A DNA stretch of 64,000 nucleotides, taken from Callorhinchus milii. Taxonomy: Eukaryota. The notes beneath the pieces were generated by a model, which saw nothing but the letters and a program-made list of their open reading frames with translations, was not told where the DNA came from and searched no databases. The position numbers and the translations under genes are program-made. This document shows positions 4,735 to 27,338 of this stretch, in pieces. The stretch is taken from assembly GCF_018977255.1 (NCBI RefSeq), contig NW_024705183.1, positions 1-64,000 of the forward strand. The letters are read 5' to 3'. Numbering within the stretch: position 1 is the first letter of the stretch; every line of letters begins with the position of its first letter.

Positions 4735-7700
4735 TCATTGCTTCTGCTGAATGGCCTCTTTCCTGGCGGCGTCCTGGAGCAGCTGCGTGTCGACCTCGTC
4801 CGCGGGAAGCTGGACGTAGCGAACCACCGAGCCTCGGATGAAGCAGTTCTTCACCGAGAGCTGGAACAAAAAAAAAAAACCGCAGCGGCGGCGCAGCGTT
4901 TACACCGCGCCCCTTCACTCAGGGTAGCGCCTCGGAGCGCTTAACGGCGGCGCGGAGCCTGGGGCCGAGCTGGGCGGAGGGGGCCTCAATGATAACAATC
5001 CTCGTAACGATAATCGTTTGACCCGGCGCCGTATCGCGTCTTCGAGACGCGCTCGAAAGCGCTTCGCGGGACACGCGGTGACGTGCGGCGACCGCGCGTC
5101 CCGCGGGCGAAGCGGGGCAGAGCCAATCGCCGCCGGCGACGTCCACCGTGGATGTTGTTATTATTATTAGTATTATTATTAGTTATTCTGGAGGGGTTAT
5201 TCCCCCCCACACACACACACACACACACACACACACACCCCCACCCCACCCCCGGGAAAAGCTGATCCGCCAATCGGCTTTCCCTACTTACCGGGTTCCT
5301 ACGTACTGCTGCGGGCGTGTGTGCGTGTGCGTGTGCGCGTGTGTCTGCGCGTGTGGGGAACGAGGCCGTGGAGGGCTTTGACGGTGAGTGAGGGTCCGGC
5401 CACTCACCATGTGAGGATACTTCTCTGGGTCCGTGACGCTGATGTCGGTCAGTTTGATGTTCAGGTACTGGCAAAGGAAAGCGAGAGGTTAAGCGTCCAA
5501 TGCATTGGGGGAGTGGCAGATCCGATCCCACCCTGACACCCCCACCCCTCACACCCGCTTGCCACCCCCCCCACCCCACCCAACCCGCTCCCGTTTGTCC
5601 CTCGACCCCCCCCCCCCCCCCCCTCCGTTCCACCATCGGCGGCCGTGCCTTCAGCCACTCCGCCCCGAAACCGTCCCTCGATCCCTCCGCCTCGCCCCCC
5701 CCCCCCCCGTCCCTCACTCCCTCCCTCCCCACAGTCAAACCCCACCTAAAGACCTTCCTTTCCGATCCTGCCTTCGGTCGCCTCCCCCCATCCCTCTCTC
5801 TCGCCCCACCCGCCCCCACCCCACCGGCTCGGGATCAGACTCCGCCGACTGGAACGCTACCCCAGCATCGAAGGGGGGGGGGGGGGGGGTGGGGGGGCTG
5901 TGTAAATCAATGCAAGTTGTTGTTGTTGTTGTTGTGTTGCTGAGAGATTTTGACCTCTGAAACACGTTCCTTCCTCTCGGCTCGAGAGGTGACGATGGTC
6001 TTTACCTGATCAACGGAGTGTAGAGTTCCGCAGATGCTATCGAACAAGGAGAGGAAATAACACGAGTTGAGATAATAATAATAATAATAATAATAATAAT
6101 AATAATAATAATAATCCTTGCATTTGACACGGCGCCCTTTTCACGTCGTCGAGACGTCTCAAAGCGCTTCACACGATATGTTGTCAAGTCTGGTGGCTCG
6201 GGTGTGTTTTGGGGGCGAAAAGGGGCAGCCGATCGCGCCCGGCGACGTCCCCGCAAACAGCCGTGGGTTGAAGGGACCAAATTAATTTGTTTCGGAAGGG
6301 ATTATTACCCCCAGAAAGCGATCTGACAAGTGGGTTCCTGCTTACTGCCGCTGTAAACAGAGGTGTTTGTGTGGTTGTCTGTCTGTGTGTGCTGTGTGTG
6401 TGTGTGCTGTGTGTGTGTGTCTGCGTGTGTGTGTGTGCCTGTGTGTGCTGTGTCTGTGTCTGTGTGTGCTGTGTGTGCTGTGTATGNNNNNNNNNNNNNN
6501 NNNNNNNNNNNNNNNNNNNNNNNNNNNNNNNNNNNNNNNNNNNNNNNNNNNNNNNNNNNNNNNNNNNNNNNNNNNNNNNNNNNNNNNNNNNNNNNNNNNN
6601 NNNNNNNNNNNNNNNNNNNNNNNNNNNNNNNNNNNNNNNNNNNNNNNNNNNNNNNNNNNNNNNNNNNNNNNNNNNNNNNNNNNNNNNNNNNNNNNNNNNN
6701 NNNNNNGCTGTGTGTGTGTCTTTGTGTGCTGTGTATGTGTGTATGTCTCTGTGTGTCTCTGTGTGTGTGTATCTGTGTGTGTGTGCGCGGAGTAAGGAAA
6801 CTTGCCAGACATTTCGCCCTGACCTGACCTGACCCGCCCGGGAATCGAACCCGGGTCCTCTCTCATTTACGGGGGTGGGGGGCGTGGGTGGGGGTTGGTA
6901 GGAGGGTGACCGAAGGCACAGTCGGTCGAAGAGGAGGGTCTCGAGACGGGCCTTGAAGGAGGCGAGGGAGGGAGCGAGACGAAGGGACTGTGGGATGGAG
7001 TTCCACGGGATGAGGGGCGGAGAGGCCGAAGGCCCGCGGGCAAGTTGAGAGCCCAACCCGACGATACAGTTGCCCCGTTGCCTCCCACTGGCCAACTCGC
7101 CCAACCCCCTTCCCTCTCTCTCCGCTACCGTCCGACCATCCATCGTCGCCCCCCCCCCCCCCCCCCCCAGTGAGATCCACACGCACCTGAGATCGTTCTT
7201 CAGTTCCACCACCACATCCTTCCCCACCAGGGACTTGAAAAAAGAGTAGAACAACTGGAAGGTGGAAAGAGACGGGTGTTGAGATCTCGAAGCGCTTCGC
7301 AGAGTACCATAACGTAACCCGTAGGAGCAGGAGGAGGCCATTCGGCCCTCCGAGCCTCTGCCCCGCCATTCAATCCCGGCGGATCTTCTAATCTAACTCC
7401 AGCTGATAAACCCGACGCTGCCTTCTCCCCATATCCCTTCATCCCAATAAGAAATCTATCCATCTCAGTCTCGAATATGTTCGAGGACTGAGCGTCAACA
7501 GCCCTTTGGGGTAGTGAGTTCCATACCTTCACTGCCCCTTTGAGTGAAGAAAGTCGTTCCTCAACTCAGTGCGAAAGGGTTGGCCTCTGATTTTGAGGCT
7601 GTGACCCCTGGTTTTAGTTTCTCCAACCGGGAAGGTCCTCGAGACGATGCTTTGAAGGAGGGGGTTGAGTGGGGGGGGGGGGGGAGAAGGGGAGAGGGCG

Positions 7701-9644
7701 AAGGAACTCTCGGGTCTAAAAATAAAGCTCGCAGGGGATACCGTGTGGGGCAAGACGGTGGGTTTAAGAGTGAGGATAATAATAATAATAATAATAATAA
7801 TCCTTGCGTTTGATGTAGCGCTTTTCACGTCTTCTCGGCGTCTCAAAGCGCTTCACAGAATAGACCGTCGAGCGAACTGACCGTATATTTGGGGGCGAAA
7901 CGCGGCCTTGGGGGGAGAGCAGGGGAATGGGGGGGAGGAGGGAATGGGGGGGGAGAGCAGGGGAATGGGAGAGCAGGGGAATGGGGGGAGAGGAAGGGGA
8001 AGGGGGGGGGGAGAGCAGGGGAGAGCAGGGGAATGGGGGGGAGAGCAGGGGAATGGGGGGGGGGGAGAGCAGGGGAATGGGGGGGGGGGAGAGCAGGGGA
8101 ATGGGGGGGGGAGAGCAGGGGAATGGGGGGGGGGAGAGCAGGGGAATGGGGGGGGGAGGAGGGAATGGTGGGGGGAGAGCAGGGGAATGGTGGGGGGAGG
8201 AGGGGAATGGTGGGGGAGAGGAGGGGAATGGTGGGGGGAGAGCAGGGGAATGGGGGAGAGCAGGGAATGGGGGGGAGAGCAGGGGAAATGGGGGGGAGGA
8301 GGGGGGGGAAATGGGGGAGGAGGGGAATGGTGGGGAGAGCAGGGGAATGGGGGGGTGGAAAGCAGGGGAATAGGGGGGGAGAGCAGGGGAATGTGGGGGG
8401 GAGAGCAGGGGAATGGGGGGGAGAGCGGGGAATGGGGGGGGAGTAGGGGAATGGGGGGGAGAGCAGGGGAATGGGGGGGGGGAGAGCAGGGAATGGGGGG
8501 GGGAGAGCAGGGGAATGGGGGGGGAGAGCAGGGGAATGGGGGGGGAGAGCAGGGGAATGGGGGGGAGAGCAGGGGAATGGGGGGGAGAGCAGGGGAATGG
8601 GGGGGGAGAGCAGGGGAATGGGGGGGGGAGAGCAGGGGAATGGTGGGGGGAGAGCAGGGGAATGGGAGAGCAGTGGAATGGGGGGGGGAGAGCAGGGGAA
8701 TGGGGGGGGAGAGCAGGGGAATGGGGGGGGGGAGAGCAGGGAATGGGGGGGGGGGAGAGCAGGGGAATGGTGGGGGGAGAGCAGGGAATGGGGGGGGAGA
8801 GCAGGGAATGGGGGGAGAGCAGGGGAATGGGGGGGAGAGCAGGGGAATGGGGGGGGGAGCAGGGGAATGGGGGGGGGGAGAGCAGGGGAATGGGGGGGGG
8901 AGAGCAGGGGAATGGGGGGGGAGAGCAGGGGAATGGGGGGGGGAGAGCAGGGGAATGGGGGGGGGAGAGCAGGGGAATGGGGGGGGGGAGTAGGGGAATG
9001 GGGGGGGAGAGCAGGGGAATGGGGGGGGGAGAGCAGGGGAATGGGGGGGGAGAGCAGGGGAATGGGGGGGGGGAGAGCAGGGGAATGGGGGGGGGAGAGC
9101 AGGGGAATGGGGGGGGAGAGCAGGGGAATGGGGGGGGGAGAGCAGGGGGGGGTAGAGCAGGGGAATGGGGGGGGAGAGCAGGGGAATGGGGGGGGAGAGC
9201 AGGGGAATGGGGGGGGGAGAGCAGGGAATGGGGGGGGGAGAGCAGGGGAATGGGGGGGAGAGCAGGGGAATGGGGGGGGAGAGCAGGGGAATGGGGGGGG
9301 GAGAGGGGAATGGGGGGAGAGCAGGGGAATGGGGGGGGAGGAGGGGAATGGGGGGGAGGAGTAGGGGAATGGGGGGGGAGGAGGGGAATGGGGGGGAGTA
9401 GGGAATGGGGGGGGAGGGGGGGGGAAGGTCAGAGAACATGACCCACTTCCCTCCACCCCGGCCCTGGGCTCAGGGTTTAGGCAAGTCCCAGGCTTCACCC
9501 GGGCCTGGAGTCTCAGCCCGGGTTGGGTGGGGGGGGGGGGGGAGGGGGGGGGTCTCACACAGGGTCAGACACAGCCCGGGTGGTGTGTGTGTTGTGGGGG
9601 GGGGGGGGAGAGTGGGGGGGGGGGAGAGCGCCGCGACTCACCAT
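4735..9644 (-). CDS. LSM2: U6 snRNA-associated Sm-like protein LSm2, copy 1 (5 exons, 95 aa, intact)
   Basis: Exons 9644-9642 (ATG|GTGAGT), 7254-7187 (68 nt, LFYSFFKSLVGKDVVVELKNDL), 6036-6006 (31 nt, SICGTLHSVDQ), 5467-5408 (60 nt, YLNIKLTDISVTDPEKYPHM) and 4860-4735 (126 nt, LSVKNCFIRGSVVRYVQLPADEVDTQLLQDAARKEAIQQKQ*). All GT-AG; total 288 nt. Confidence 0.96.
7307..7640 (-). mobile_element. CR1 LINE 3' fragment in LSM2 intron 1
   Basis: Minus-strand translation FPVGETKTRGHSLKIRGQPFRTELR / VWNSLPQRAVDAQSSNIFETEMDRFL, then a GGGCCGAATGGCCTCCT 3' motif. Second copy at about 45546-45875. Confidence 0.85.
7909..9425 (+). repeat. G-rich ~21-nt minisatellite (GAGAGCAGGGGAATGGGGGGG)n
   Basis: About 1.5 kb tandem array in LSM2 intron 1; the equivalent array in the duplicate (46146-46650) is about 0.5 kb. 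Confidence 0.95.
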
Positions 9645-9682
9645 CCTCCCGCCACCAGCTCCGATTCAATCAGCGACTGAGG

Positions 9683-26905: not shown

Positions 26906-26948
26906 TTTGGGTTCAAGTAGTTTGTTCGTTCGCTTAGTCTTTACATGT

Positions 26949-27338
26949 TCAAGCGTAGACCTTGCTCGGCTGCCCCGTCTTCTTGGGCAGCAGAACCGCC
27001 TGGATGTTCGGCAGGACCCCGCCCTGGGCGATAGTGACGCCTCCCAGTAGTTTATTCAGTTCCTCGTCGTTGCGGACGGCGAGCTGCAGATGTCGAGGGA
27101 TGATCCTGGTCTTCTTGTTATCGCGGGCCGCGTTGCCCGCCAACTCCAACAGCTCGGCCGTCAGGTATTCGAGCACGGCGGCCAAATAGACCGGCGCACC
27201 GGCGCCCACCCGCTCCGCATAGTGACCCTTCCGCAACAAACGATGAATGCGTCCGACTGGAAACTGCAACCCAGCTCTGGAGGAGCGGGTCTTCGCTTTG
27301 GCTCGACTCTTGCCTCCAGTTTTCCCTCGTCCAGACAT
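26949..27338 (-). CDS. H2A: Histone H2A (129 aa, atypical C-terminus [11 protein letters not shown])
   Basis: ATG at 27338; [10 protein letters not shown]...AGLQFPVGR...[10 protein letters not shown]. Confidence 0.97.

What the first reader, a model, noticed from the sequence alone, without database searches (positions are those of the whole stretch)
4735..27338. LSM2 and intronless HSP70 (MHC class III neighbours) are embedded inside a histone cluster
Seen: LSM2 (minus) and an intronless HSP70 (plus) lie head-to-head about 8.5 kb apart, with histone genes between and around them. Established: human LSM2 is adjacent to HSPA1L/HSPA1A/HSPA1B in MHC class III, and the major histone cluster lies several Mb away in the extended class I region of the same arm. 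Inference: this may be a tight ancestral histone-class III linkage in an early jawed-vertebrate MHC, or a lineage-specific rearrangement.
Basis: partly seen in the sequence, partly recalled or inferred. Interest (0 to 1): 0.7.

Follow-up and report, generated by a model that had tools for sequence, protein, structure and literature searches.

The report
Variant histone cluster inside shark MHC
In the elephant shark a cluster of unusual histone genes, including arginine-rich linker histones likely used to pack sperm DNA, surrounds two marker genes of the immune-gene region (MHC class III), and a histone block sits beside the same markers in a ray and likely in two sharks, so the arrangement likely predates the split of chimaeras from sharks but was not seen in two bony fish.

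Summary
Confirmed with corrections. An intact five-exon LSM2 (minus) and a single-exon HSP70 coding region (plus) start 8.47 kb apart among about 20 histone-type genes. Between them lie only a truncated H2B and a degenerate H1. LSM2 occurs twice through a 10-kb duplication, and the join of the first copy to HSP70 crosses an untested N stretch. The contig (64.6 kb) holds no other MHC gene. Published gene lists place the block: sawfish MHC reads HSP70s, LSM2, 8 histones, VARS1, 6 histones, ABHD16A, CSNK2B; two sharks show histone-sized genes in the same slots; lungfish and reedfish do not. The HSP70 groups with shark MHC-chromosome HSP70s (HSPA8 retrocopy rejected, p-AU 0.003); its frameshift is an assembly error, but its EEVD-less tail recurs in two other runs. 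The cluster is not the genome's main histone repeat: its H1s are arginine-rich, with relatives on the HSP70-bearing chromosome in 9 of 11 elasmobranchs, resembling spermatid/protamine-like H1s (expression untested). Verdict: a conserved chondrichthyan MHC class III variant-histone cluster; ancestry in all jawed vertebrates unproven. Ten literature searches and this scan's earlier notes showed no prior description.

The parts
264..644 (+). H2B variant (copy A), stem-loop at 723-738
1420..1872 (+). H2B variant with Arg-rich N-tail, frameshifted in this copy (intact copy at 39567)
4735..9644 (-). LSM2 copy A, five coding exons, 95 aa, intact; GC-box minisatellite 9683-9960 just upstream
12165..12442 (-). 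truncated H2B (3' third deleted up to the stem-loop remnant), relative of 57319-57702
13132..14052 (-). H1-derived Ala-rich ORF lacking most of the winged helix, with stem-loop at 13025-13040; weak match to the sawfish Arg-rich H1 N-terminal part
   Evidence: (no Pfam hit)
18114..19993 (+). single-exon HSP70 coding region, 626 aa, HSPA1-type clade, fast-evolving, ends without EEVD; frameshift near 19527 is an assembly error
22724..22739 (+). orphan histone stem-loop with no histone ORF upstream
24616..25026 (-). H3 with stem-loop
25796..26206 (-). H3 with stem-loop
26949..27338 (-). H2A with stem-loop
30996..31739 (+). Arg-rich H1 (K/R 1.0), likely orthologue of the sawfish 239-aa H1; no stem-loop matched
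33069..33707 (+). Arg-rich H1 (K/R 0.65) with stem-loop and a GRPRK motif shared with shark H1s
35151..35462 (+). H4 with stem-loop
36384..37118 (+). Arg-rich H1, tail probably frameshifted in this assembly, stem-loop at 37549
38410..38790 (+). H2B variant (copy B) with stem-loop
39567..40019 (+). H2B variant with long Gly/Arg-rich N-tail
42941..46868 (-). LSM2 copy B, one base short in exon 5 (error or pseudogene)
49756..51075 (-). H1 variant, tail frameshifted in this assembly, stem-loop at 49776
52793..53011 (-). decayed H2A
   Evidence: (59% identity), no Pfam hit
55513..56415 (+). second copy of the H1-derived ORF, stem-loop at 56504
57319..57702 (+). H2B variant with stem-loop; source of a dead dispersed copy on contig C5
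61954..63584 (-). third, inverted copy of the two-H2B block

Best explanation
This contig is the HSP70-LSM2 segment of a chimaera's MHC class III region (placement inferred from sharks and a ray), carrying a cluster of divergent histone genes that likely entered beside LSM2 and VARS1 before chimaeras split from sharks and rays and that likely serves germ-cell chromatin packing rather than bulk replication. Shown: gene content, stem-loops, Arg-rich H1 tails, local direct and inverted duplications, HSP70 in the HSPA1-type clade without an EEVD tail, and a separate homogeneous five-gene histone repeat elsewhere in the genome. Inferred: recent local duplications put a broken H2B and a degenerate H1 between LSM2 and HSP70 and doubled LSM2; the H1s act like protamine-like/spermatid linker histones, their winged helix binding linker DNA and their Arg-rich tails condensing it; the HSP70 still folds clients but has likely lost binding to EEVD-reading co-chaperones; the linkage persists through slow rearrangement, not through a shared function with immunity.
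For: Sawfish chr34 list: HSP70 x3, smx5, 8 histone-named genes, vars1, SAPCD-like, 6 histone-named genes, abhd16a, nfkbil1, csnk2b, CLIC1, ddah2. White shark chr19: 12 of 12 genes between smx5 and vars1 are 351-1138 bp, 10 more of 312-878 bp follow vars1; catshark 5 of 7 genes between vars1 and smx5 under 1 kb. A 239-aa sawfish Arg-rich H1 (720-bp gene, same size as the H1 9 kb from smx5) is the best match of window H1 30996; two 208-aa white-shark H1s match the two 627-bp genes around vars1 by size and contig. H1s of this group share a contig length with the HSP70 record in 9 of 11 elasmobranchs. Order H4-H1-H2B-LSM2 with the same strands in window copy B and sawfish. K/R 0.6-1.0 in the four window H1s against 4.8 for the repeat H1 and 15-21 in reedfish and zebrafish. 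Top Atlas clusters: spermatid-specific H1 0.94, protamine-like 0.92 and 0.91. Dead 92%-identical copy of the 57319 H2B from 5' UTR to stop on C5 suggests germline transcription. HSP70 trees and AU tests; dN/dS 0.19 over 462 codons and 0.43 over 138 lid codons against its closest paralogue.
Against: No other class III gene could be tied to this contig: it ends at 64,591, and searches for VARS1, CCHCR1, CSNK2B and SAPCD1 families found nothing linked (two had no positive control). Shark lists give no names, so histone identity there rests on sizes. Shared contig length shows one chromosome, not tight linkage; 2 of 11 species did not share it. No expression data: the sperm role rests on composition and automatic cluster names; the Atlas score can reach 0.9 by chance 4-10 times in 100; several window H1 tails look frameshifted, which distorts K/R. 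The H1 globular-domain tree is poorly resolved and also pulls the repeat H1 into the chondrichthyan group. The HSP70's closest paralogues sit on C30, where 200 kb showed no histone or recognisable class III gene; its branch is long, and no record named HSPA2 was in the trees. Other individuals differ by up to 11 letters in 613 at HSP70, as much as LSM2 copies A and B, so copy A may be an uncollapsed haplotype.
Confidence: 0.72

Rival explanations
1. The cluster was already inside class III in the first jawed vertebrates; bony vertebrates lost or moved it, and the mammalian main cluster on the MHC chromosome descends from it.
For: Present in both chondrichthyan lineages (window). Reedfish keeps a histone cluster on its MHC chromosome; the largest human cluster is on chromosome 6 in the extended class I region.
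Against: Lungfish: 0 of 4 genes between VARS1 and LSM2 histone-sized. Reedfish histones 170 Mb from smx5 and 280 Mb from vars1 on a chromosome over 338 Mb. Chicken's single cluster is flanked by WBP11/SMCO3/ART4, the human chromosome-12 neighbours; no histone cluster was found on the opossum MHC scaffold of an interim assembly. No outgroup examined.
Confidence: 0.2
2. The histones are ordinary somatic replication-coupled genes of a minor, non-homogenised cluster; Arg-rich tails reflect GC-rich drift, with no germ-cell role.
For: Stem-loops follow most genes (15 matches); H3 and H4 are 98-99% identical to the repeat copies; the region is GC-rich, which favours Arg codons.
Against: Arg-rich H1 subtypes with shared motifs are kept across chimaera, sharks and rays; the repeat H1 of the same genome stays Lys-rich; some mammalian testis H2B variants also carry stem-loops (PMC8857922).
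Confidence: 0.25
3. The head-to-head 8.5-kb LSM2-HSP70 layout is an assembly artefact: the first 10 kb is an alternative haplotype of 38155-47299 joined across a gap, and LSM2 is single-copy.
For: Copy A starts at the contig start and its homology ends at an N stretch; A/B divergence 1.56% matches between-individual differences at HSP70; one smx5/LSM2 row per species in the lists.
Against: All 3 multi-base N runs in 709 kb of other stretches are exactly 25 long, unlike this 30; three versions of the H2B block each carry private differences (10, 11, 7), so at least one duplication is real or erroneous; HSP70 or an HSP70-sized gene lies 5' of LSM2 in sawfish, both sharks and lungfish. It would not remove the histone linkage.
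Confidence: 0.3
4. The HSP70 is an HSPA8 retrocopy or other non-MHC paralogue that landed beside LSM2 by chance.
For: [quoted passage not shown]
Against: AU test rejects grouping with HSPA8 (p 0.003 and 0.0003) and with the C10 gene (p 0.017); best solved-structure match is human HSPA1A; conserved position.
Confidence: 0.04

Closest known systems
Elasmobranch MHC class III segment HSP70-smx5(LSM2)-VARS1 (gene lists in the supplement of Verissimo et al. 2023, PMC10751288; parts 6, 7, 16, 17 of the file and term searches seen; main text parts 1-2 of 7 read, 'histone' 0 times in the whole main text)
   Same: HSP70 5' of LSM2, histone block 3' of LSM2, H4-H1-H2B-LSM2 order, Arg-rich H1s
   Different: Chimaera has LSM2 twice, broken histones between LSM2 and HSP70, one fast-evolving EEVD-less HSP70 head-to-head (the adjacent elasmobranch HSP70-type genes are tandem); VARS1 not on the contig
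Human class III VARS1-LSM2-HSPA1L/HSPA1A/HSPA1B (order seen in a table of PMC1309616) and the chromosome-6 main histone cluster (PMC9526256, passages)
   Same: LSM2 next to intronless HSPA1-type genes; a histone cluster on the same chromosome
   Different: Human cluster is megabases away (distance recalled), over 60 mostly canonical genes; no histones at LSM2
Protamine-like (PL) sperm nuclear basic proteins and mammalian spermatid H1 variants (definition from passages of PMC13148410)
   Same: Winged-helix head plus disordered tail rich in Arg and Lys
   Different: PLs are said to derive from replication-independent H1/H5; these heads are closest to replication-type H1, most genes carry stem-loops and sit among core histones; expression unknown
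Fish-type tandem five-gene histone repeat (PMC9526256, passages; contigs C54, C104, C175 here)
   Same: All five histone classes, stem-loops
   Different: Window cluster is heterogeneous, variant-rich and unrepeated; its H2B is 75% and H1 head 43% identical to the repeat's

Membership tests
MHC class III region | LSM2 adjacent to HSPA1-type HSP70 | tested here: met
   exact adjacency crosses an unverified N stretch
MHC class III region | physical linkage to VARS1, CSNK2B, C4 or class I/II genes in this genome | tested here: inconclusive
   contig ends at 64,591; family searches found no linked gene
MHC class III region | orthologous block lies in the MHC of relatives | tested here: met
   sawfish chr34, white shark chr19, catshark, lungfish lists
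HSPA1-type (MHC-linked) HSP70 | intronless coding region | tested here: met
HSPA1-type (MHC-linked) HSP70 | phylogenetic grouping with MHC-chromosome HSP70s, not HSPA8 | tested here: met
   SH-aLRT 92-99, AU p 0.003; long branch, no named HSPA2 row
HSPA1-type (MHC-linked) HSP70 | C-terminal EEVD motif | tested here: not met
   protein ends NAKSFV; a GPIVEEAD relic lies in the next frame; no indel there in two other DNA runs
HSPA1-type (MHC-linked) HSP70 | heat inducibility through heat-shock elements | tested here: inconclusive
   strict pattern found none upstream of the window gene or within 600 bp of the three C30 copies; transcription start unknown
Replication-dependent histone cluster | intronless genes ending in the 16-nt stem-loop | tested here: met
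   15 matches, Rfam Histone3 x3; none after H1 30996
Replication-dependent histone cluster | canonical, homogenised proteins expressed in S phase | tested here: not met
   H2B and H1 strongly divergent from the genome's repeat; expression not testable
[quoted passage not shown] | winged-helix head with Arg/Lys-rich disordered tail | tested here: met
   for the four full H1s; not for the two H1-derived ORFs
[quoted passage not shown] | testis-restricted expression and presence in sperm chromatin | not testable with these tools
   runs are coded, none on record as RNA
[quoted passage not shown] | descent from replication-independent H1/H5 | tested here: not met
   heads group with replication-type H1, away from the genome's H1.0-like and H1x-like rows, on 81 columns with modest support

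The most novel reading that the evidence does not exclude
The ancestral jawed-vertebrate MHC class III held a stem-loop histone cluster specialised for spermiogenesis, in which replication-type H1 evolved into protamine-like proteins beside a testis chaperone HSP70; cartilaginous fishes keep it, and the mammalian chromosome-6 cluster with its testis histones and MHC-linked HSPA1L are its scattered remains.
Probability: 0.12. Interest if true: 0.8.

Novelty: new variant of a known kind. Interest (0 to 1): 0.5.

Why it matters
It adds an unremarked, long-conserved component to the cartilaginous-fish MHC map and extends class III synteny to chimaeras, which the 2023 survey called data-deficient. 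It gives a concrete test of whether the histone-MHC linkage of mammals is ancient. It also points to a family of Arg-rich H1 and H2B variants shared by chimaeras, sharks and rays, candidates for an independent route from replication-type H1 to protamine-like proteins, and to a naturally EEVD-less cytosolic HSP70 under purifying selection.

Tried and rejected
Flanking scaffold: none, contig ends 591 bp past the window. Own-genome family searches: PF10458, PF07111, PF01214 gave no match (the last two rang in no control either, so uninformative); PF11414 only C8 and C1; PF00133/PF08264 hit C167, which has PPP1R11-like and RPS5-like ORFs, the VARS2 neighbourhood of sawfish, and no histones. C30 HSP70 neighbourhood: ORF scan over-masked (87%) and named nothing. 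C150, C754, C31 H1 hits are a decayed repeat H1, H1x-like and H1.0-like genes (labels recalled). No snoRNA host signal: Rfam gave only tRNA-like SINE heads and Histone3; the three ARAGORN tRNAs are SINE heads. Expression: no RNA holder listed; of 24 runs 4 were laid, one guessed-RNA run gave a 151-nt contig on HSP70 and the other no cover: no evidence either way. The HSP70 5' region and the LSM2-HSP70 join were not tested with reads. Atlas search for the H1-derived ORF was unavailable. Literature: 10 searches found no description of histones in the chondrichthyan class III region; term look-ups in PMC7677710, PMC3964593, PMC8302630, PMC10210626, PMC9679377 and two preprints gave 0 hits for 'histone'; the one axolotl supplement file held had no hit; PMC6761025 not held. 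Figures, most subscription papers, bioRxiv supplements and the supplements of the elephant-shark and bamboo-shark genome papers were not seen and may show the cluster. Earlier scan notes near this place or with these words: none.

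
Full report
Source and layout. The window is bases 1-64,000 of contig C442 (64,591 bp) of a 992-Mb genome. Identical or near-identical protein records are named Callorhinchus milii, so this is a chimaera. Of 21 ORFs scanned, 11 hit the core histone family, 4 linker histone, 2 HSP70 and 4 nothing; tblastn adds a frameshifted H2B and a decayed H2A. A stem-loop pattern (recalled consensus) matched 15 times, 3 of them above Rfam's threshold.

The observation. LSM2 copy A is intact, five exons from 9644 down to 4735. The HSP70 coding region runs 18114-19993 on the plus strand, 8,470 bp from the LSM2 start. 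Between them are a truncated H2B and an H1-derived ORF without most of its winged helix, both mirrored by an inverted copy at 55309-57596. The window is built from duplications: 15-10047 recurs at 38155-47299 (second LSM2, 1.56% substitutions over the first 6.4 kb), and the H2B block recurs inverted at the contig end. The A/B homology stops at a 30-N stretch. All 3 multi-base N runs in 709 kb of other stretches are 25 long, and three versions of the H2B block carry 10, 11 and 7 private differences, which leans towards real duplication; but other individuals differ from the window by 7 letters in 591 and 11 in 613 at HSP70, so an uncollapsed haplotype stays possible (about 30%). HSP70, nine intact-looking histone ORFs and LSM2 copy B share one stretch with a single N, so the linkage does not depend on that join.

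The HSP70. The window's frameshift near 19527 is absent from a 626-aa annotated record and both other DNA runs laid carry an extra base there. The protein ends NAKSFV; a GPIVEEAD relic sits in the next frame and neither run shows an indel there, so the EEVD-less tail is shared. In a 63-row tree (quick search) and a 26-row subset (careful search), both using the 626-aa record, it is sister to the genome's C30 HSP70 (99/97), next to elasmobranch HSP70s whose contigs match the MHC chromosomes, within the inducible clade. AU tests reject grouping with HSPA8 (p 0.0033; 0.0003 for the chondrichthyan HSPA8 rows) and with the C10 gene (p 0.017). Caveats: long branch, simple model in the tests, own paralogues stitched from blast pieces, no row named HSPA2. 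dN/dS against C30 is 0.19 (462 codons) and 0.43 in the lid (138 codons): constrained but fast. Three near-identical HSP70s on C30 had no histones within the 200 kb read.

Synteny. No further class III gene could be linked in this assembly. The supplement of Verissimo et al. 2023 (PMC10751288; five parts of the gene lists and term searches seen) settles the context. Sawfish chr34: three HSP70s, smx5 (LSM2), 8 histone-named genes, vars1, a SAPCD-like gene, 6 more histone-named genes, then abhd16a, nfkbil1, csnk2b, CLIC1, ddah2, NCR3. White shark chr19: an HSPA array, smx5, 12 unnamed genes of 351-1138 bp, vars1, two larger genes, 10 genes of 312-878 bp. Catshark: 5 of 7 genes between vars1 and smx5 under 1 kb. 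The order H4-H1-H2B-LSM2 and its strands match window copy B. Against wider ancestry: lungfish has 4 genes between VARS1 and LSM2, none histone-sized, the last a 2.5-kb gene head-to-head with LSM2; reedfish has vars1 at 58 Mb, smx5 at 167 Mb and histones at 338 Mb of one chromosome. Chicken's cluster has the human chromosome-12 neighbours (PMC9526256, passages); the opossum MHC scaffold lacked the cluster (PMC1351924, passages). The paper's main text never mentions histones.

What kind of histones. The genome's bulk histones form a homogeneous H3-H2A-H2B-H1-H4 repeat on C54, C104 and C175. The window's H3 and H4 are 98-99% like those, but its H2B query is 75% and its H1 head 43% identical. Its four full H1s have K/R 0.58-1.04 against 4.8 for the repeat H1 and 15-21 in reedfish and zebrafish (two tails look frameshifted). 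Of 29 homologues returned, the elasmobranch ones are likewise Arg-enriched. H1 30996 matches a sawfish 239-aa H1 best (73% over 86 aa) and shares flanking motifs; that length equals the 720-bp H1 gene beside smx5. A profile search gave 142 new proteins among its top 150, 23 of them Arg-rich; I looked up 20 of the 142, 15 of them from the Arg-rich set: 10 chondrichthyan, 3 teleost, 1 alligator, 1 unnamed. In 9 of 11 elasmobranchs with both records, these H1s share a contig length with the HSP70; Rhinoraja and Leucoraja (small scaffolds) do not. The Atlas ranks spermatid-specific H1 and protamine-like clusters first (0.94, 0.92, 0.91), a lead only. A dead copy of the 57319 H2B on C5 (92% DNA identity, 5' UTR to stop, internal stop) suggests germline transcription. 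The 81-column H1 tree is too weak to define subtypes.

Mechanism. Shown: the anatomy above. Inferred: a histone cluster became lodged between LSM2 and VARS1 by the chondrichthyan ancestor (split time over 400 Myr, recalled), escaped homogenisation with the main repeat and diversified; its H1s bind linker DNA through the winged helix and condense it with Arg-rich tails, as protamine-like proteins do (definition in PMC13148410, passages), most likely in spermatids; recent local duplications in the chimaera interleaved histones with LSM2 and HSP70. A role of the HSP70 in histone exchange, by analogy with HSPA2 in spermiogenesis (PMC4326386, passages), is speculation. I put the chondrichthyan class III linkage at about 0.9, the germ-cell role at about 0.6, and gnathostome ancestry at about 0.2.

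Novelty. The arrangement is visible in public annotation but ten searches and term look-ups found no description (listed under Tried and rejected); unseen figures, supplements and subscription papers may hold one. It is a new variant of known things: an MHC class III block with an inserted variant histone cluster.

Noticed in passing
window 14600-14680 (+): A TATA box and 5' UTR resembling the H1 gene promoters of the cluster, followed by a GTGAG donor-like site and no H1 coding region, 3.4 kb upstream of HSP70; could be a co-opted first exon.
   Followed up: no
window 11170-11320 (-): CpG-rich promoter-like stretch with a donor-like site facing LSM2 copy A; absent upstream of copy B. If it is a non-coding first exon, the join at the N stretch is real.
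   Followed up: partly
window 13132-14052 and 55513-56415: Two 300-aa Ala-rich ORFs with stem-loops, open despite 4.5% divergence, keeping only the first part of the H1 head: possibly a functional headless H1 derivative.
   Followed up: partly
window 19970-20040: GPIVEEAD relic one frame off the HSP70 tail; shared by two other DNA runs.
   Followed up: yes
window 22724-22739 (+) and about 49300 (+): Orphan stem-loop and a stem-loop-like remnant with no histone ORF: traces of deleted histone genes.
   Followed up: no
L086 3203-3607 (C5, 21.045 Mb): Dead dispersed copy of the window's H2B variant inside a repeat.
   Followed up: partly
L034-L045 (C167): PPP1R11-like and RPS5-like ORFs with valyl-type synthetase pieces on both strands, perhaps a mis-oriented contig at a 25-N gap; MHC framework region by sawfish order.
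   Followed up: partly
P0040, P0243, P0246: Reedfish HSP70 and Lys-rich H1s with the closest head sequences share a 170.8-Mb chromosome that is not its MHC chromosome.
   Followed up: no
L051-L063 (C54): The H1 of the main repeat has an unusually divergent head (long branch).
   Followed up: no
window 17543-17725 and 16155-16426: 21-bp tandem array and a CCAAT-rich 25-bp array in the HSP70 upstream region.
   Followed up: no
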